Origin: TPA_inf: Saccharomyces
Lineage: Eukaryota
Direction: 5' to 3'
Assembly: GCA_000146045.2 (NCBI GenBank)
Contig: BK006948.2
Location: forward strand, 736,001-800,000
Length of the DNA stretch: 64,000 bases
This document shows positions 2,924 to 50,744 of this stretch, piece by piece; the stretch's first letter is position 1; each line of letters starts with the position of its first letter. Both the position numbers and the translations under genes were made by a program. Below the pieces are notes generated by a model. It saw only the letters and a list, made by a program, of their open reading frames with translations, was not told the DNA's origin and searched no databases.

Positions 2924-5632
2924 TCATAAATTTTTGGAGACGCCCTTGTAGCTTTTCTTGAAAACCAAGATTGAATCTATTTTCTCCAAGGCTAATTCTA
3001 ACAGCTCCTTTCTCTTTTGCAATTCAATATGCCTTGAAATCTTCGGATCTTCCTTAGCAAACATTTCCACTTGTTCATCTCCCAACAATGTTAACCTTCT
3101 GTCTAATTCAATAGGGAAGTTATAAAAAAAATCGCTTAATAATTCAACGTTAAGGAATAAAACAGCTGTGGAGGTCAATTTATCACTAACTGCAGATAGA
3201 AATACCTCTGGACAACGATCCTTCTCAATTGTCGAATGACATTTGTTTTTCAACATTTTTAATCTGAACGATAACACTTTGCACCTTTTATCCAGGAAAA
3301 TAGCTTCAGAGCCTCTTTCCAATAGTAATTTGGACATGCCGAGTGTTTCTTTTTGCAAATTTGATTCATTTTCTAAATAGCCCATTACATTTGCTAATTT
3401 CTTACTGCCAACGGCATTTTTGATTGCCTGGTACCTTGAGTTACATTGACGTAATTCTTCCTTTATTAAATTAATGGAATGTTGACGAGCAAGGCTCCAG
3501 TCTCTTTCTTCCAAATCAATTTCATACTTGAAGGGTTTGATACAGTTCTCAACTTGATCAGCCGTTGAATAGTATTTACTGTTTAGAACGTTAATGGCTG
3601 TATTGCTAACAAGGTCTTTGATCAGTTCATGGTTTTTTAGTTGAGTAGACTCCAGAATGTTATCTAGCTCCTTTAAAATTGCATTGGTAGTAAGCATTGT
3701 AGATAATCTACCAATGCCCATTTTAGTTAAGCCGGATGATGCGAGTTCCAATTTTTTATGCCAATATAGCATATCGGTATCACTTTCCAGCTTAGAGGAA
3801 GATAGATCCTGAAGATTATCATCCTTCCAATACCGTGTAGCCAAAACATCTAAAACTTTCTGATCCAATTCTGCTCTCAAGATTGATTTCAGTTCATTTC
3901 TATGAAATTTTTCCTGAAACTCTTTAATACCCAACTTTAGTACATCTATATTATTCAAAAGGTATGATTTAGGAGTTAGATGCCTGTCGTTAAACTCTAC
4001 TTTAAACAAATAAGAAGTATCATCCAACTCTTGTTGAATAAGTGTTGAAGTCGGCTCCAGCGCATTTGACATGGAAATCTCCAAGATTTTGATCAACTTT
4101 TCTCTCAATTTCTTAGTGGAAACTTGGCAATTGGTAAAATACTTTTTGTTTTCTTTGAAATAAGCTTTTTCAAATTGATGAGACACAATTTGTTTTAAAC
4201 CATTGGTATTTTCTTCTCCGCTACTTTGGCCGTGCTGGCCTTTTGAAAATATCCCACTTAATGACGAAGAAGGTGCTTCACCGAAAAGACCTAGGTGTTT
4301 TCTGTTTATACTACTTGGTGTCTTAGTAATCACTCCTACATAGCCCATACTGAGAGGATATTTTTTATTATTCAAGATGCTTCTTGCTTTTTCAGGATCC
4401 ACCAAATCCAGTTTGGTAATGACACCTATCGTTCTCAAGCCTTTAGGATCTGCCGCTTTAGAAGCTTTCAAAGCAGAACTATTAGCCAGGTCAACATCCG
4501 CAGCAGAAATTGCTAAAATAATATTAGGTGCAGTCAAATATTTTTCGCAGAGGTCACGGATTTTTGTTTTCAGTTCTATTGGCTGGTCTGCCGCTTCCAC
4601 TTGTATATAGCCAGGTAGATCCACCAATGATAAATCTGGAACGCGGGACGATTTGATTGTCAATTGAATAGGCTCCTCTGAAACAGCCTCTGAAGTCGGA
4701 ACGGCCATGTTCAGTTCCATTAGCATTCTTTTCACCTCTTTAAAGTCCTTGATATTGTATAGACGCATGCTTGGAAAATCAGCTGTTACATTATTCGAGT
4801 TAGGTGTATTGACCAAAGTCAATTCAATGGGTCTTCTTGTGACCATGTTGGAACCTTTTGGTAAGAATTCCCTCCCAACAATGGATTCTAGTACTGAGGA
4901 TTTACCAGACGATTGTGAACCTATCACGACAATAGATGGTAAAGTTAAATGTGCAGAAGAAGAGTCCACTTTATTCAAAATAGTTCTAATTTCAATCATT
5001 TGTTTGGTTAAGTTTAACATTTCGTCTTGCGTTGTATCTACAGAATCGTTTTCATCATCCTCGTCATCATCATCTTCGTCGTCATCATCTTTAGGATCTC
5101 CTTGCCTCTTACTTTCGTCATCGTCGAGTGATGTAGCGGCTATTAGAGTAGCAGTTGGCACCGTTCCATCGTTTCCATGACCACCGTCTTGTGACTTATC
5201 ACCGGAAAACATTTTATTAAACTTTTCCTTCATCGATTCACCTAAATCCTTGATTCGATCTAGTTTGTCCTTAGTAAAAGAGCTAGCTTCTTCCATCTTA
5301 TAAGCTATATAACTCCCTGCAGCAGCCATCCCGCCACCCACATATATGGGTAACCTAATAATTTTAGATATAATTTTAGGAAAATGTGATATCGATCTCC
5401 TGGTGATAACAAAACTCAAAGCATTGGCATGTGCTGATCTGTGAACATTGCTCATGCGGCTGTGTAAGTGCACCAACGGACTTTTGATGTAAGGAGAGCT
5501 ATATAGTATCGCCGGATGCGTAGCAAGCTGTCTTCTCAGAATTAAAAGCCGTACTGGGCTCGCATTCATCCTTACTAATGTGTTATAGTTCGCCACTCTT
5601 GGGATGGCCCTTAATGAAGTAGAATTACTCAT
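2924..5632 (-). CDS. MGM1: Mitochondrial dynamin-like GTPase (fusion, cristae). The ORF is 902 aa from the first ATG (5632). A second in-frame ATG at 5569 gives 881 aa starting MNASPVRLL.
   Basis: Dynamin GTPase motifs (GSQSSGKSS P-loop, DLPG, TKLD) and recognisable Mgm1 sequence. N-terminal presequence region and an acidic D/E tract. Confidence 0.9.
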   Translation of the reverse strand: MSNSTSLRAIPRVANYNTLVRMNASPVRLLILRRQLATHPAILYSSPYIKSPLVHLHSRMSNVHRSAHANALSFVITRRSISHFPKIISKIIRLPIYVGGGMAAAGSYIAYKMEEASSFTKDKLDRIKDLGESMKEKFNKMFSGDKSQDGGHGNDGTVPTATLIAATSLDDDESKRQGDPKDDDDEDDDDEDDENDSVDTTQDEMLNLTKQMIEIRTILNKVDSSSAHLTLPSIVVIGSQSSGKSSVLESIVGREFLPKGSNMVTRRPIELTLVNTPNSNNVTADFPSMRLYNIKDFKEVKRMLMELNMAVPTSEAVSEEPIQLTIKSSRVPDLSLVDLPGYIQVEAADQPIELKTKIRDLCEKYLTAPNIILAISAADVDLANSSALKASKAADPKGLRTIGVITKLDLVDPEKARSILNNKKYPLSMGYVGVITKTPSSINRKHLGLFGEAPSSSLSGIFSKGQHGQSSGEENTNGLKQIVSHQFEKAYFKENKKYFTNCQVSTKKLREKLIKILEISMSNALEPTSTLIQQELDDTSYLFKVEFNDRHLTPKSYLLNNIDVLKLGIKEFQEKFHRNELKSILRAELDQKVLDVLATRYWKDDNLQDLSSSKLESDTDMLYWHKKLELASSGLTKMGIGRLSTMLTTNAILKELDNILESTQLKNHELIKDLVSNTAINVLNSKYYSTADQVENCIKPFKYEIDLEERDWSLARQHSINLIKEELRQCNSRYQAIKNAVGSKKLANVMGYLENESNLQKETLGMSKLLLERGSEAIFLDKRCKVLSFRLKMLKNKCHSTIEKDRCPEVFLSAVSDKLTSTAVLFLNVELLSDFFYNFPIELDRRLTLLGDEQVEMFAKEDPKISRHIELQKRKELLELALEKIDSILVFKKSYKGVSKNL
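5046..5099 (-). repeat. MGM1: Coding GAT/GAC/GAA-rich tract encoding KDDDDEDDDDEDDEND in MGM1.
   Basis: Seen directly. Its antisense reading frame gives the spurious poly-Ser ORF 4707..5180. Confidence 0.85.
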
Positions 5633-6909
5633 GCTTTCAGAGTATTATGGTGAATATGCGAGGCTATATTATAAGTACGAAAAGAATGGAAAAGCCTAAG
5701 AATAAAATGATATCTGTACTACCCAAAAAGAGGCTTTTTCGTGTTCTCCCGTTAACTGGTGTGAACCTTCCTAGCTGATTATGTCTTGCCTTTCAATAGA
5801 ACGCTACTATTTTGTTTTTAACGGTACAAGGAAATATTAACAACTTGCATATTGATCATCGAATACGAAGCGCTGAATGAGGGTTAATTTCATAGTAAAT
5901 CTTTCATGGACAGAAATATTTGAAATATATTTCCTCAAAGAGTACACTAGATCCATTCATATTTTAGGCTTCCTATGGAAACCGTTTTTTCAAGGATAAA
6001 CCCCGCCATATGTTCTTTGCGAAGTCTTTTGCAGTTAAAACTAATTACAACTCTGTTATTTACTGACACCTGCGTTAAAATTTTATCACAATATGTCATC
6101 CGCTGAGAGAGATGTACTATTTATAATTACTTAAGAGCGACTACTTCATTTACCATTAGCGAGCAGAAGAACAGCTTACTTGTCGATGTTCTTCTCTGGC
6201 TAAATGAAATGTCAATTATTGAGATTGAGATGGGTATGTATGATCGGATTTTGATATCAGCCGATGAGACGAAGATTCAATAGCTTCAACCGTCCCTGCG
6301 GGGGGTACTTACCTTTTGTAACCAGTACCCTGTGCAAATTCTCGGCGTGTACTACCTCTTTTGGGACCACAACCCTTTGTACGCACTTTCGTCAGATGCA
6401 AATTTTTACACGCGTTGAAAAATGTTTCAGGAAGAGATACTGCGTAAAAAAAAGACACATGTGTTACGCAGGAAAAAGTTTGTGAGGCTTTTTGCCTTAA
6501 CAGATTGACTTGTAGCCCTGTTAGGTTTACCCAACAGTTGTTTTTCTGTGTGTCGAAAATTTTTTCAGATTGTTTTCAACTGACACTTGCCTGTTTCATA
6601 TTAGTTGTAACTTAAACTTTCAAACATAAAACTTTTTTGGAAGTCCATCCTTCACATGACTTGAATCCCTTCAATATCGAAACAGTATCCTCAAAATCTC
6701 TTATCACTTTTCTAATTGTTTTCTTCCCCTTTTTGTAGTAACTCGCTGTAAAGCACATTTTATTCATAATCTCCTTTGTGCCAGAACTCAAGGTCAATAG
6801 GCCAGAATTATTGGAAGGAAAGAGGGAAGAAAATACGATATTGCTAGTTCATTAAGTCAAGGAAGAAAATACTCAAAAAACTGTACAGCTCAATCAGGTA
6901 CACATTACG

Positions 6910-23325: not shown

Positions 23326-23529
23326 GCATGTCTGTCCTACCAGCCCTTGCATAGGCGTCTTAAAATGTTGAGAAGCCTAAACTTCCCTCAATTTCCTACA
23401 CAAAAGGGCATTAAGATGAACAAAATGATGATCTCTCCGATGGACTTGACGCTTATACCAAAAGAGACTCGATATAAACAACACGGTTTTATAGTCCTGG
23501 ATTATTAATCCGCACGATTAATTTTGTAT
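23326..23529 (-). ncRNA. SNR35: H/ACA box snoRNA candidate matching snR35 (about 204 nt). snR35 guides pseudouridylation of 18S rRNA at the site later hypermodified to m1acp3-pseudouridine.
   Basis: Remembered chromosomal coordinates map here using the SNR17A anchor. The minus-strand RNA ends ...GGACAGACAUGC, so an ACA box sits exactly 3 nt from the 3' end. A 5' hairpin (GGAUUAAUAAUCC) and an H-box-like AGAUCA are present. A Reb1 site lies upstream. Confidence 0.55.
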
Positions 23530-44106: not shown

Positions 44107-44596
44107 GTCGACGTACTTCAGTATGTAATATACCCCAAACATTTTACCCACAAAAAACCAGGATTTGAAAACTATAGCATCTAAAAGTCTTAGGTACTAG
44201 AGTTTTCATTTCGGAGCAGGCTTTTTGAAAAATTTAATTCAACCATTGCAGCAGCTTTTGACTAACACATTCTACAGTAGGATCATTTCTATAGGAATCG
44301 TCACTCTTTGACTCTTCAAAAGAGCCACTGAATCCAACTTGGTTGATGAGTCCCATAACCTTTGTACCCCAGAGTGAGAAACCGAAATTGAATCTAAATT
44401 AGCTTGGTCCGCAATCCTTAGCGGTTCGGCCATCTATAATTTTGAATAAAAATTTTGCTTTGCCGTTGCATTTGTAGTTTTTTCCTTTGGAAGTAATTAC
44501 AATATTTTATGGCGCGATGATCTTGACCCATCCTATGTACTTCTTTTTTGAAGGGATAGGGCTCTATGGGTGGGTACAAATGGCAGTCTGACAAGT
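44107..44596 (+). ncRNA. SNR17A: U3 small nucleolar RNA gene snR17A (C/D box, pre-rRNA processing). Exon 1 is 44107..44120, the intron 44121..44277 (157 nt), and exon 2 44278..44596. Mature RNA is 333 nt.
   Basis: Recognised as U3 (GUCGACGUACUUCA | intron | UAGGAUCAUUUCUAUAGGAAUCGUCACUCUUUGACUC...GGCAGUCUGACAAGU). The intron has GTATGT, the branch point (G)ACTAAC and CAG. The 157-nt intron length matches the A copy. Confidence 0.93.
44121..44277 (+). other. SNR17A: Spliceosomal intron within the U3 snoRNA gene.
   Basis: GTATGT immediately after nt 14 of U3. TGACTAACAC branch region at 44259-44268. 3' splice site TACAG|TAGG. Confidence 0.88.
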
Positions 44597-48856: not shown

Positions 48857-50744
48857 ATGGGTGTCGCAGATTTGATCAAGAAATTCGAAAGCATCTCAAA
48901 GGAAGAAGGCGATGCTACCGTTGATACAAACAGTTCATCAAAGCCTCTCAAATCAAACGATGAAACCAAAGAATTGCATCAACAAGAGTCTACTGCTGTT
49001 CCGCAAGAGGTTGACGTAAATGAAGAGTTTGAGAATGAACCAGAAACAATTAACAGTAGTAGAACTGCTGAGAAACCATTGGAAACAAACCTCCCAAAAC
49101 CTGAAACTAACGAAGAAGACGAAGAAGAGGGCTCCATGAGCGAGAATAAAATATATTCTAAAGGTGAAAATGCTGACATCAACGTTAATGATTTTCAAGA
49201 ATATAAAGAAATGGAAAATACTGGCGCTGAAGTTCTTGCAAGTAGTGTTGAAGAATCCGATGCTATTCAAGAAGGTGTGGCTGAGGAAACTGAAGGGATT
49301 GCTACTCCTAAACAAAAAGAAAACGAAAAAAATGATGAATCAGAAGAAGAATCTGCAAATAATGCATCTGAACCAGCCGAAGAATATTCTCAATCTGAAG
49401 AAGATGCTGACATCGAGCAATCTAATGGCAAAGAAACTGAAAATGCCGAAAACGCTTCTCAACAAGCTAATGATGGCTCTACAAGTACCACGACTTCTAA
49501 GAATAAGAAGAAAAAAAACAAAAAAAAAAACAAGAAGAAGAGAAATGGAAATGTTAACACCAACGCTAATGTCGACGACAGCACCAAAACCGGTGAAAAT
49601 GATGATACAACCGGCGACACCACGTCATCAACAACCTCCGCCATTCAAGAAGTGAATGATTTGGAAGTTGTTGATGACTCTTGTCTTAGGCATTGATCAA
49701 CAGCATAATAGGGAGCATTTGAAAGCGTTAACTCAGGACGTTAAAGAAGAGACGTTAGAGAATATTGCGCACGAGGGCAGAGGTGATAACACAGGCGATC
49801 AGAATGCAGTAGAAAAATCTGATTTCGAAAAATCAGATACAGAAGGTTCAAGAATAGGCCGCGACTTACCCTTTGAATTTGGAAAACGTAACTTGACCGA
49901 GGAATCTGACGTTTGGGATCATAACGCTTGGGATAATGTTGAGTGGGGTGAAGAACAAGTCCAGCAGGCGGAGGAAAAAATCAAAGAGCAGTTTAAGCAT
50001 CCTGTACCTGAGTTTGACAAAAAACTATACAATGAAAATCCGGCACGTTATTGGGACATTTTTTATAAAAACAACAAGGAAAACTTTTTCAAGGACAGAA
50101 AGTGGTTACAAATTGAATTTCCAATCTTATACGCATCTACCAGAAAAGACGCAGAACCCGTTACAATATTTGAAATTGGCTGTGGGGCAGGTAACACTTT
50201 TTTCCCGATCTTGAAAGATAATGAGAACGAAAACTTGAGGATAATAGCCGCAGATTTTGCTCCAAGAGCCGTCGAATTAGTTAAAAATTCTGAACAGTTC
50301 AACCCCAAGTACGGCCACGCAACAGTATGGGATTTGGCCAATCCTGACGGTAATTTACCTGATGGCGTCGAACCTCATTCTGTGGATATTGCAGTAATGA
50401 TCTTCGTTTTTAGTGCTTTAGCACCAAACCAATGGGATCAAGCCATGGATAACCTTCACAAAATTTTGAAACCAGGCGGTAAGATCATATTTCGTGATTA
50501 CGGTGCATATGATTTAACTCAAGTTAGATTCAAAAAGAACAGAATCCTAGAAGAGAACTTCTACGTTAGAGGTGATGGTACAAGAGTTTATTTTTTCTCT
50601 GAAGAAAAACTAAGAGAAATTTTCACGAAAAAGTACTTCTTGGAAAATAAAATTGGAACTGATAGAAGGTTGTTGGTTAACAGAAAAAGGCAACTAAAAA
50701 TGTACCGCTGCTGGGTACAAGCTGTGTTTGACGTTCCTCAATAG
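48857..50744 (+). CDS. ABP140: Actin-binding protein and tRNA(Thr/Ser) m3C32 methyltransferase ABP140/TRM140 (628 aa). It is made by a programmed +1 ribosomal frameshift joining ORF 48857..49687 (frame A, through CTT) to 49689..50744 (frame A+1).
   Basis: The N-terminus MGVADLIKKFESISKEE is the Lifeact peptide. The C-terminal ORF has a class I SAM-MTase fold (IFEIGCGAGNTFFPIL, ADFAPRAV). The heptamer CTTAGGC sits at the ORF junction, 3 codons before the frame-A stop. The combined length of 277+351=628 aa matches. Confidence 0.9.
49501..49550 (+). repeat. ABP140: A-rich coding tract (AAGAAGAAAAAAAACAAAAAAAAAAACAAGAAGAAG) encoding KNKKKKNKKKNKKKRN in the ABP140 N-terminal ORF. It includes an A10-11 homopolymer.
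   Basis: Seen directly, about 150 nt upstream of the +1 frameshift site. Confidence 0.9.
49685..49691 (+). other. ABP140: Programmed +1 ribosomal frameshift site CUU-AGG-C. Leu-tRNA in the P-site, rare AGG Arg codon in the A-site, slip to GGC.
   Basis: CTT AGG C is in frame with ORF 1, which stops at TGA 49694-49696. The +1 frame reads GGC ATT GAT CAA CAG = G I D Q Q, matching the second ORF (LGIDQQHNREHLK). This is the same heptamer as the Ty1 and EST3 +1 sites. Confidence 0.88.

What the first reader, a model, noticed from the sequence alone, without database searches (positions are those of the whole stretch)
49685..49691. Programmed +1 ribosomal frameshift joins the two ABP140 reading frames
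The two long same-strand ORFs 48857..49696 and 49656..50744 overlap by 41 nt in frames offset by +1. At the junction lies CUU-AGG-C, the same heptamer that drives +1 frameshifting in Ty1 and EST3. Peptidyl-tRNA-Leu is in the P-site, the A-site holds the rare AGG codon decoded by a low-abundance tRNA-Arg, and the ribosome slips to GGC. The zero-frame stop (TGA 49694) follows 2 codons later. Joining at this point gives exactly 628 aa, which is the Abp140/Trm140 length. The product is an N-terminal actin-binding region fused to a C-terminal SAM methyltransferase. A naive ORF caller reports two genes here. This is the main non-standard decoding event in the window.
Basis: partly seen in the sequence, partly recalled or inferred. 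Interest (0 to 1): 0.7.

Follow-up and report, generated by a model that had tools for sequence, protein, structure and literature searches.

The report
Known ABP140/TRM140 +1 ribosomal frameshift site

Summary
ORF1 (48857-49696) and the +1-frame ORF2 (49656-50744) overlap by 41 nt. CTT-AGG-C lies at 49685-49691 with CTT in the ORF1 frame and GGC in the ORF2 frame. The zero-frame TGA follows two codons later. Joining at the heptamer gives 628 aa.

That fusion is 624/628 identical, without gaps and straight through the junction (…DSCLGIDQQ…), to the deposited S. cerevisiae Abp140p. The heptamer is invariant and correctly framed in 11 distinct orthologous yeast loci whose flanks have diverged. 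One lineage (L017) lacks it and has the two halves fused in a single frame. There are no intron signals and no conserved +1-frame ATG.

A strong hairpin (49624-49678, z = -7.2) ends exactly 6 nt before the heptamer. It matches a stimulator published in 2025 that raises frameshifting from about 40% to about 60%. The C-terminal half is a METTL6-like m3C tRNA methyltransferase.

The frameshift has been in the literature since Asakura 1998.

Verdict: real, correctly interpreted, already known, low interest.

The parts
48857..49687 (+). Zero-frame part of ABP140/TRM140, codons 1-277 (Met1 to Leu277). It is acidic, low-complexity and poorly conserved, with a Lys/Asn-rich tract.
   Evidence: Identical to Abp140p residues 1-277 except for 4 strain differences.
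48857..48907 (+). N-terminal 17 codons, MGVADLIKKFESISKEE: the actin-binding motif. From my own knowledge, this is the source of the 'Lifeact' probe.
   Evidence: MGVADLIKKFE, or close variants such as MGVAELIQKFE (L013) and MAVAELIKKFE (L014), is conserved in every orthologue whose ORF1 start is on the contig. [quoted passage not shown]
49624..49678 (+). 55-nt stem-loop that stimulates frameshifting. The 5' arm falls in the Ser/Thr codons 256-260 and the 3' arm is the VVDD codons 271-274.
   Evidence: Alone it folds at -26.7 kcal/mol, z = -7.16, with 0/200 shuffles as stable. It is the same helix in 95-nt and 201-nt contexts. It is retained in the closest orthologue, L001. It matches the element shown by mutagenesis in PMC12661321 to raise frameshifting from about 40% to about 60%.
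49679..49684 (+). [quoted passage not shown]
   Evidence: PMC12661321 states that the stem-loop lies 6 nt upstream and that the spacer length matters.
49685..49691 (+). Shift heptamer CUU-AGG-C: P-site Leu codon, slowly decoded A-site AGG, and the +1 codon GGC.
   Evidence: for the frames. Invariant in 12/12 distinct loci. [quoted passage not shown]
49694..49696 (+). Zero-frame stop TGA. Ribosomes that do not shift terminate here and release a 279-aa product.
   Evidence: In the orthologues a zero-frame stop follows 2-6 codons after CTT.
49689..50744 (+). +1-frame part: codons 278-628 (Gly278 to Gln628) plus the stop TAG.
   Evidence: Conservation in the +1 frame begins immediately after the heptamer (G-[ILKT]-x-[QN]…HNKEEL.ALTQDVKEE).
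49965..50732 (+). m3C32 tRNA methyltransferase domain (Trm140 / METTL2 / METTL6 family). The Pfam SAM-methyltransferase core covers residues 431-591, which is 50148-50630.
   Evidence: Pfam Methyltransf_12, _23, _25 and _11, E = 1e-16 to 4e-9. PDB METTL6 chains such as 8owx and 8p7b match at E = 3e-53 over residues 93-348 of the C-terminal half.
49656..49658 (+). The ATG that makes a naive ORF caller start a second 'gene' here. It is not a conserved start codon.
   Evidence: The positions of +1-frame ATGs differ between orthologues. L009 has none upstream of GGC, and its next one is 669 nt downstream.

Best explanation
The window carries Saccharomyces cerevisiae ABP140/TRM140 (YOR239W). It is a single gene whose full-length 628-aa product needs a programmed +1 ribosomal frameshift at CUU-AGG-C (49685-49691).

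Mechanism. The steps marked 'literature' were not tested here.
1. The ribosome translates ORF1 until CUU (Leu277) is in the P site and AGG is in the A site.
2. AGG is decoded slowly because its tRNA-Arg(CCU) is scarce (literature).
3. The peptidyl-tRNA-Leu(UAG) pairs only weakly with CUU and re-pairs one base downstream on UUA (literature).
4. Abundant Gly-tRNA then reads GGC, which fixes the new frame (literature).
5. A 55-nt hairpin ending 6 nt upstream re-forms behind the ribosome and pushes it forward, raising efficiency from about 40% to about 60% (literature; the hairpin itself is confirmed here).
6. Ribosomes that do not shift stop at TGA 49694 and release a 279-aa N-terminal product.

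The shifted product joins the actin-binding N-terminus and its acidic linker to the tRNA m3C32 methyltransferase.
For: Shown here:
- Exact frame geometry and a 628-aa fusion.
- 624/628 identity without gaps to deposited Abp140p, through the junction DSCLGIDQQ.
- The heptamer is invariant, with CTT in the ORF1 frame and GGC in the methyltransferase frame, in 11 distinct orthologous loci with diverged flanks. Most of these are syntenic, with a YOR238W-like ORF upstream and a MET7-like Mur-ligase ORF downstream.
- Annotated full-length homologues from Torulaspora, Lachancea and Naumovozyma read …L-G… at the junction.
- L017 lacks the heptamer and has the ORF1-type LEAVD motif and the methyltransferase in one frame. 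The fusion protein is therefore the selected product.
- There are no intron signals and no conserved +1-frame ATG.
- The hairpin 49624-49678 has z = -7.16 and ends 6 nt from the heptamer.
- The C-terminal half matches METTL6 at E = 3e-53.

From the literature:
- The site is described as codons 277-279 CUU_AGG_C with a stop at codon 280 (PMC5009743).
- About 60% frameshifting by dual-luciferase reporter and by ribosome profiling. The stem-loop was confirmed by DMS-seq, synonymous mutants, a synthetic hairpin and spacer insertions. The stimulation is selective for heptamers that allow P-site re-pairing (PMC12661321).
- The tRNA-Leu isoacceptor repertoire correlates with the presence of ABP140 frameshifting across yeasts (PMC12719033, citing Farabaugh 2006).
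Against: Nothing found here contradicts it. The limits are these:
- The tRNA side of the mechanism (tRNA-Leu(UAG), single-copy tRNA-Arg(CCU)) cannot be tested from this window, which holds no tRNA gene.
- AGG is not rare as a codon in the window's ORFs, so the 'hungry A site' rests wholly on published tRNA data.
- By simple MFE folding, the hairpin is seen only in the window, in its closest orthologue (L001) and, with an unrelated sequence, in the K. marxianus-like L011. It is not seen in the other orthologues, so it is an accessory and not universal.
- Against L001, in a fixed register, the hairpin shows 1 compensatory pair, 2 one-sided changes and 3 broken pairs. Stability is recovered only in a shifted register.
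Confidence: 0.97

Rival explanations
1. These are two independent genes. ORF2 is translated on its own from the ATG at 49656 (or 49674) or from its own transcript, and the overlap with ORF1 is incidental.
For: An ATG opens the +1 frame at 49656. Automatic gene callers report roughly 350-aa ORF2-only proteins for many yeasts. Homologues outside Saccharomycetaceae are stand-alone methyltransferases of about 350-410 aa.
Against: The +1-frame ATGs are not conserved in position, and L009 has none before GGC, with the next one 669 nt downstream. The +1 frame opens only 33 nt before GGC, just after a stop codon. Peptide conservation switches from frame 0 to frame +1 exactly at the heptamer. L017 is fused in frame. 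The reporter controls in PMC12661321 exclude reinitiation.
Confidence: 0.015
2. The frame break is a sequencing or assembly error, or a strain-specific frameshift mutation, in a gene that is normally a single ORF.
For: A single-base frame break between two long ORFs is what an indel error looks like.
Against: The same break, at the same invariant heptamer, occurs in 11 independent orthologous loci from different assemblies and species. The deposited Abp140p cluster has 112 member sequences. There is no homopolymer at the junction.
Confidence: 0.005
3. The two ORFs are joined at the RNA level, either by a short intron or by transcriptional slippage, and not by the ribosome.
For: Some annotators bridged the break with an invented intron. 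The K. marxianus P0030 and Z. bailii P0022 models skip the …SLG… junction.
Against: There is no GTATGT, GTACGT or GTATGA 5' splice site and no TACTAAC branch point anywhere in 48857-50744. The ORFs overlap; they are not separated by a gap. The junction has no slippery homopolymer. The only long A-runs (49511-49530) lie 155 nt or more upstream of the junction, before a +1-frame stop, and are not conserved.
Confidence: 0.005
4. It is a +1 ribosomal frameshift but by another mechanism. The P-site tRNA does not slip, and the incoming Gly-tRNA binds out of frame to GGC, as in the Ty3/OAZ1-type model.
For: Both mechanisms have been proposed for yeast +1 sites (PMC12661321). Nothing in the DNA sequence alone separates them.
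Against: CUU-A allows re-pairing on UUA. In PMC12661321 the ABP140 hairpin stimulated CUU-type heptamers (EST3 rose from 15% to 40%) but not the GCG-type Ty3 and OAZ1 heptamers. The authors read this as showing P-site movement at CUU sites.
Confidence: 0.08

Closest known systems
S. cerevisiae ABP140/TRM140 (YOR239W; formerly split as YOR239W and YOR240W) programmed +1 frameshift
   Same: It is this gene. The 628-aa product is 624/628 identical to Abp140p. The heptamer is at codons 277-279 and the stop at codon 280, exactly as described in PMC5009743. The upstream hairpin is as in PMC12661321. The neighbouring ORFs and the snR35 and U3 genes fit a Saccharomyces chromosome.
   Different: Only four amino-acid strain differences from the YJM1450 allele: I65T, Y100D, Y115S and D273G.
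Ty1 retrotransposon gag-pol (TYA-TYB) +1 frameshift
   Same: The heptamer CUU-AGG-C is identical, and so is the proposed mechanism: tRNA-Leu(UAG) slips from CUU to UUA while AGG waits for scarce tRNA-Arg(CCU) (PMC12661321, PMC5009743).
   Different: This is a cellular gene, not a mobile element. The native ABP140 context stimulates frameshifting (about 60%), whereas the native Ty1 context lowers it to about 20%.
EST3 +1 frameshift
   Same: It has the same P-site codon CUU and the same +1 direction, and it is conserved over the same span of Saccharomycetaceae evolution.
   Different: The heptamer is CUU-AGU-U, not CUU-AGG-C. The slow A-site codon is AGU (Ser), and the basal efficiency is about 15% against about 40%.
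YFS1 (YPL034W) and LLP1 (YJR112W-A) +1 frameshifts
   Same: They use the same CUU-AGG-C heptamer in chromosomal genes (PMC12719033, PMC12661321).
   Different: [quoted passage not shown] In ABP140 the site follows 276 codons and has a 5' hairpin.
Human METTL6 / METTL2 / METTL8 and S. pombe Trm140/Trm141 (m3C32 tRNA methyltransferases)
   Same: The C-terminal half is homologous: METTL6 structures match at E = 3e-53, and METTL2 and METTL8 appear among the sequence hits.
   Different: These are stand-alone enzymes without the actin-binding N-terminal extension and without a frameshift (PMC5372738).

Membership tests
Ty1-type +1 programmed ribosomal frameshift site (CUU-AGG-C) | The heptamer CUU-AGG-C is present with CUU as a zero-frame codon. 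| tested here: met
   CTTAGGC lies at 49685-49691, and (49685-48857) mod 3 = 0.
Ty1-type +1 programmed ribosomal frameshift site (CUU-AGG-C) | The +1 frame is open from the heptamer into a long coding region, and the zero frame closes shortly after. | tested here: met
   The +1 frame is open for 351 codons from GGC. The zero-frame TGA follows two codons after CTT.
Ty1-type +1 programmed ribosomal frameshift site (CUU-AGG-C) | The heptamer and the frame relationship are under purifying selection in orthologues. | tested here: met
   All 7 bases are invariant in 12/12 distinct loci with diverged flanks, and GGC is always in the methyltransferase frame.
Ty1-type +1 programmed ribosomal frameshift site (CUU-AGG-C) | Host tRNA repertoire: CUU is read by the weakly pairing tRNA-Leu(UAG), no tRNA-Leu(IAG) is present, and tRNA-Arg(CCU) is scarce. 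| not testable with these tools
   There are no tRNA genes in the window and the rest of the genome is not available. The feature is reported in the literature (PMC5009743, PMC12719033). A local codon count shows that AGG itself is not rare.
Ty1-type +1 programmed ribosomal frameshift site (CUU-AGG-C) | Ribosomes are shown to change frame at the site, by reporter, ribosome profiling or protein evidence. | not testable with these tools
   This needs experiments. It is published for this very gene: about 60% by dual-luciferase reporter and by ribosome profiling (PMC12661321).
ABP140/TRM140 orthologue group | Near-identity of the conceptual fusion to Abp140p across the junction. | tested here: met
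   624/628 identical with 0 gaps.
ABP140/TRM140 orthologue group | The N-terminal actin-binding motif MGVADLIKKFESISKEE. | tested here: met
   It is present at 48857-48907, and its core, or close variants of it, is conserved in the orthologues whose ORF1 start is on the contig. Actin binding itself was not tested; it comes from the literature.
ABP140/TRM140 orthologue group | A C-terminal SAM-dependent m3C32 tRNA methyltransferase domain. | tested here: met
   Pfam methyltransferase domains at residues 431-591 and METTL6 at E = 3e-53. Catalytic activity was not tested; it comes from the literature.
ABP140 5' stem-loop frameshift stimulator (PMC12661321) | A stable hairpin whose base lies two codons (6 nt) upstream of the heptamer. 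| tested here: met
   The hairpin is 49624-49678, at -26.7 kcal/mol and z = -7.16, with the spacer at 49679-49684.
ABP140 5' stem-loop frameshift stimulator (PMC12661321) | Base pairing is maintained by covariation in related species. | tested here: inconclusive
   Only one close orthologue (L001) was available. It has 11 substitutions in 55 nt. Of 22 pairs, 16 are unchanged, 1 is compensatory, 2 changed on one side and 3 are broken in the same register. An alternative register keeps -24.9 kcal/mol, and the 70-nt context has z = -4.1. The K. marxianus-like L011 has a hairpin of unrelated sequence (z = -4.8), and the other orthologues have none by MFE. The paper reports covariation within Saccharomyces.

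The most novel reading that the evidence does not exclude
The frameshift might be a regulated switch and not a constitutive event, coupled to the enzyme's own activity. The 5' arm of the stimulatory hairpin (49624-49635) is built from the Thr/Ser codon run TTSSTTS (codons 255-261). Those codons are read by the tRNA-Thr and tRNA-Ser species that Trm140 methylates. How fast trailing ribosomes clear this run would decide whether the hairpin can re-form behind a ribosome paused on CUU-AGG. That would link m3C32 status to the ratio of the 279-aa actin-binding product to full-length Trm140.

The Ser/Thr run is flagged as 'of unknown significance' in PMC5009743 and is noted in PMC5372738. That it coincides with the hairpin arm is my own reading. 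This is speculation and no data here test it.

A smaller open point: an invariant wobble-position T six bases after the heptamer (49697; 12/12 loci) may mean that the functional site extends 3' of the heptamer.
Probability: 0.05. Interest if true: 0.5.

Novelty: already known. Interest (0 to 1): 0.1.

Why it matters
As a discovery it adds nothing. ABP140 has been one of the standard chromosomal examples of programmed +1 frameshifting in yeast since 1998. Its shift site, efficiency, evolutionary age (about 150 million years) and, since 2025, its 5' hairpin stimulator are all published.

Its value here is as a positive control for the scan. A reader with no tools recovered a genuine recoding event at single-base precision, and ORF callers do mis-split this gene: many of the homologues in the protein database are ORF2-only fragments or models bridged with invented introns.

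Why an actin-binding peptide is coupled to a tRNA methyltransferase through a frameshift that roughly 60% of ribosomes make is still biologically unexplained (PMC5009743).

Tried and rejected
- Heptamer enrichment in the window: not enriched, 2 copies against 4.5 expected. The argument therefore rests on placement and conservation, not on count.
- The second CTTAGGC (minus strand, 5694-5700), tested as a possible uORF-type shift site ahead of the 902-aa ORF that starts at 5632: rejected. Its frame has no ATG, and neither the CTT frame nor the GGC frame is that of the ORF.
- L013 first looked as if it lacked the heptamer. That was an artefact of my search range. The heptamer is at L013:2955, 46 nt upstream of the gene caller's ATG.
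- L017 has no heptamer. Its first ~86 nt are an Illumina Nextera adapter chimera, so its N-terminus cannot be read, but the remaining sequence shows an in-frame fusion.
- Hairpin search in distant orthologues (L003, L004, L006, L008, L009, L010, L012, L013 not folded, L014): no significant structure by MFE with mononucleotide shuffles.
- Intron signals: none.
- tRNA genes in the window, wanted to test the tRNA side of the mechanism: none.
- D'Silva 2011 (PMC3096042) is not held in the library. It is cited only through the reference lists of other papers.
- The bacterial and archaeal genome collection and the phage, plasmid and E. coli collections were not used, because they are irrelevant to a yeast gene.
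- No structure prediction was run, because sequence matches to solved METTL6 structures already settle the fold.
Full report
**1. The observation**

ORF1 runs from the ATG at 48857 to the TGA at 49694-49696 (279 aa). A second reading frame, offset +1, is open from the ATG at 49656 to 50744 (362 aa). The overlap is 41 nt.

CTTAGGC occupies 49685-49691. CTT is zero-frame codon 277, and AGG (278), CAT (279) and TGA follow. GGC at 49689 is in the ORF2 frame. The last stop in the +1 frame before GGC is the TGA at 49653. Reading ORF1 through Leu277 and then continuing from GGC gives 277 + 351 = 628 aa.

**2. Is it more than chance?**

The bare heptamer is not enriched in the window: there are 2 copies on both strands against 4.5 ± 1.95 expected. 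The other copy (minus strand, 5694-5700) is intergenic. Its frame has no ATG, and neither of its frames enters the neighbouring 902-aa ORF.

The placement is what is significant:
- This is the only place in the window, on either strand, where two open stretches of at least 200 codons abut in a +1 relationship.
- The chance that the heptamer falls in frame at one of the ten in-frame positions of the overlap is about 3.5e-4.

**3. What the gene is**

The conceptual fusion is 624/628 identical, with no gaps, to a deposited 628-aa 'Abp140p [Saccharomyces cerevisiae YJM1450]'. The alignment runs straight through the junction …VVDDSCL-GIDQQHN….

Pfam finds only SAM-methyltransferase domains, at residues 431-591. 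The +1-frame half matches solved structures of human METTL6, a tRNA N3-methylcytidine methyltransferase, at E = 3e-53. The N-terminal half is acidic and low-complexity, apart from the first 17 residues (MGVADLIKKFESISKEE) and a Lys/Asn tract.

The neighbours fit a Saccharomyces chromosome: a 306-aa ORF upstream with no Pfam match, a folylpolyglutamate-synthase-like (Mur ligase) ORF downstream, and snR35 and U3 snoRNA genes elsewhere in the window. From my own knowledge, this neighbourhood is YOR238W – ABP140 – MET7 on chromosome XV.

**4.

I used the ORF2-only proteins that automatic gene callers had produced from other yeast assemblies to fetch 17 loci, which represent 12 distinct orthologues. 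In 11 of the 12:
- CTTAGGC is present, with CTT in the frame of an upstream ORF and GGC in the methyltransferase frame.
- A zero-frame stop follows 2-6 codons after CTT.
- Where the contig reaches that far, ORF1 begins with MGVADLIKKFE or MAVAELIKKFE.

Anchored on the heptamer, all seven of its columns are invariant, while the flanking columns are mostly 30-80% conserved. ORF1 length varies from 38 to 277 codons, so the heptamer is conserved independently of what lies around it.

Peptide conservation switches frame exactly at the heptamer. The frame-0 motif LE[VA]VDD lies before it, and the +1-frame motif HNKEEL.ALTQDVKEE.LE..AHE begins just after it. Annotated full-length proteins from Torulaspora, Lachancea and Naumovozyma dairenensis read …L-G… at this point.

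The twelfth orthologue, L017, has no heptamer. After an adapter-derived chimeric 5' end, its DDINGLEAVD…PHNKEELEAMTQDV runs in a single frame and aligns next to the N. dairenensis sequence. [quoted passage not shown] It shows that the fused protein, not two separate proteins, is what selection maintains.

**5. Rival explanations**

- *Independent initiation of ORF2.* There is no conserved +1-frame ATG. L009 has none upstream of GGC, and its next one is 669 nt downstream.
- *Intron.* There is no GTATGT, GTACGT, GTATGA or TACTAAC anywhere in the gene, and the ORFs overlap instead of being separated by a gap.
- *Sequencing error or pseudogene.* This is excluded by conservation across 11 independent loci and by a cluster of 112 deposited sequences.
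- *Transcriptional slippage.* The junction has no homopolymer. The A8-C-A11 run at 49511-49530 lies 155 nt or more upstream of the junction and is not conserved as an A-run.

**6.

Folding the upstream sequence gives a 55-nt hairpin at 49624-49678 whose base lies exactly 6 nt (two codons) before the heptamer:
- Alone, it folds at -26.7 kcal/mol with z = -7.16, and none of 200 dinucleotide-preserving shuffles is as stable.
- The same helix appears in 95-nt and 201-nt contexts.
- Its 5' arm lies in the Ser/Thr codons 256-260, and its 3' arm is the VVDD codons 271-274.
- The closest orthologue, L001, has 11 substitutions in these 55 nt. In the same register, 16 of 22 pairs are unchanged, 1 is compensatory (A-U to G-C), 2 changed on one side and 3 are broken. 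An alternative register still folds at -24.9 kcal/mol.
- L011, whose junction peptide is identical to K. marxianus P0030, has a hairpin of unrelated sequence (z = -4.8). The other orthologues show none by MFE.

This is the element reported in PMC12661321 (NAR 2025). That paper describes a stem-loop 6 nt upstream of the ABP140 heptamer and supports it with DMS-seq, synonymous-site conservation, disruptive synonymous mutants, a synthetic replacement hairpin and spacer insertions. The element raises frameshifting from about 40% to about 60%. It stimulates only CUU-type heptamers, where the P-site tRNA can re-pair, and not the GCG-type Ty3 and OAZ1 heptamers.

**7. Mechanism**

Shown here: the geometry, the conservation, the hairpin and the domain identities.

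Taken from the literature:
- CUU is read by tRNA-Leu(UAG), which has an unmodified wobble U and pairs weakly.
- AGG waits for a scarce tRNA-Arg(CCU).
- The peptidyl-tRNA re-pairs on UUA.
- Abundant Gly-tRNA reads GGC.
- The re-forming 5' hairpin pushes the ribosome forward.
- Reporter and ribosome-profiling estimates of efficiency agree at about 60%.
- Ribosomes that do not shift terminate at codon 280.

**8.

1. EST3 uses CUU-AGU-U. It is 'similar', or 'a derivative', and not the same heptamer.
2. AGG is not a rare codon in this window's long ORFs. At 10.9 per 1000 it is second only to AGA among Arg codons. The scarcity lies in its tRNA.
3. What slips is the P-site tRNA, from CUU to UUA, after which GGC is read.

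**9. Comparison with what is known, and verdict**

This is the ABP140/TRM140 frameshift itself:
- It was first reported by Asakura et al. 1998 (reference 13 of PMC12661321).
- Its evolution was analysed by Farabaugh et al. 2006 (cited).
- The methyltransferase function was assigned by D'Silva et al. 2011 and Noma et al. 2011 (reference lists).
- It was reviewed in PMC5009743, with the same codon numbers that I derived.

The finding is real and correctly interpreted, but already known. Interest is low.

Two points remain unexplained, and I did not resolve either. The first is why an actin-binding peptide is coupled to a tRNA methyltransferase by a partial frameshift, which the literature also leaves open. 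The second is an invariant wobble-position T six bases after the heptamer (49697), seen in 12/12 loci although its codon encodes seven different amino acids.

Noticed in passing
window 49697 (6th base after the heptamer): T is invariant in 12/12 distinct ABP140 loci, although it is the wobble base of a +1-frame codon that encodes seven different amino acids (D, N, V, T, P, I, S). Background T at third positions is 0.33. In the zero frame it starts a triplet that reads TCA (6 loci), TAA (4), TGA (1) or TTG (1). It may be a relic of an ancestral zero-frame stop or an extended 3' context of the shift site.
   Followed up: partly
window 49511-49530: An A8-C-A11 run encodes part of the Lys/Asn tract KNKKKKNKKKNKKKR in ORF1. 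The basic tract is conserved in most orthologues, but there it is encoded mainly by AAG and the long A-runs are absent. From my own knowledge, A-runs of this length can cause ribosome sliding or polymerase slippage. Any +1 slip here would end at the TGA at 49653.
   Followed up: partly
window 49164-49655: The +1 frame, which is the same frame as the methyltransferase, is also open for more than 163 codons upstream, inside ORF1. A single stop (TGA at 49653) separates it from ORF2. PMC5009743 mentions this '171 codon ORF' as of unknown significance.
   Followed up: no
window 49622-49639 (codons 256-261): The Thr/Ser codon run TTSSTTS is flagged in reviews as unexplained, given that Trm140 modifies tRNA-Thr and tRNA-Ser. 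It coincides with the 5' arm of the stimulatory hairpin. The hairpin may explain part of its conservation.
   Followed up: no
window 5694-5700 (minus strand): The only other CTTAGGC in the window lies 62 nt upstream of the ATG of a 902-aa ORF (5632 down to 2924). Its frame has no ATG and neither of its frames matches the ORF, so it is a chance occurrence.
   Followed up: yes
window 23326-23529 (-) and 44263-44596 (+): Rfam finds snoRNA snR35 (233 bits) and fungal U3 (213 bits). The U3 match spans 334 nt against a 274-position model.
   Followed up: no
L017:1-86: This metagenome contig begins with unrelated sequence joined through the Illumina Nextera mosaic end AGATGTGTATAAGAGACAG, so it is an assembly chimera. 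The gene caller's 'VYKRQ…' start of protein P0010 is translated adapter sequence.
   Followed up: yes
L014:120-240 (also L015, L016): This ABP140 orthologue has an ORF1 of only 38 codons (MAVAELIKKFEDIAKEITAPVVYDTTTMADDELEQNQL), yet it keeps the actin-binding start and the CTTAGGC shift site. The long acidic linker is therefore dispensable, but the motif and the frameshift are kept.
   Followed up: partly
proteins P0038 and P0040 (Wickerhamomyces and a relative), P0069 (Hanseniaspora): Outside Saccharomycetaceae, the Wickerhamomyces-type homologues start with a different amphipathic N-terminus (MGLKKF[FI]K…). They carry the acidic repeat region and the terminal Lys/Asn tract at the C-terminus, not the N-terminus. 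The Hanseniaspora homologues (577 aa) start MGVADLIKKFD and are annotated as single ORFs. Whether they need a frameshift could not be checked without their DNA.
   Followed up: no
proteins P0022 (Z. bailii) and P0030 (K. marxianus): These public gene models appear to bridge the frameshift with invented splice junctions, because the …SLG… junction peptide is missing. P0030 is additionally fused to an upstream 4'-phosphopantetheinyl-transferase-like ORF (PF01648). Many database entries are ORF2-only fragments of about 350 aa. These are annotation errors caused by the recoding event.
   Followed up: partly
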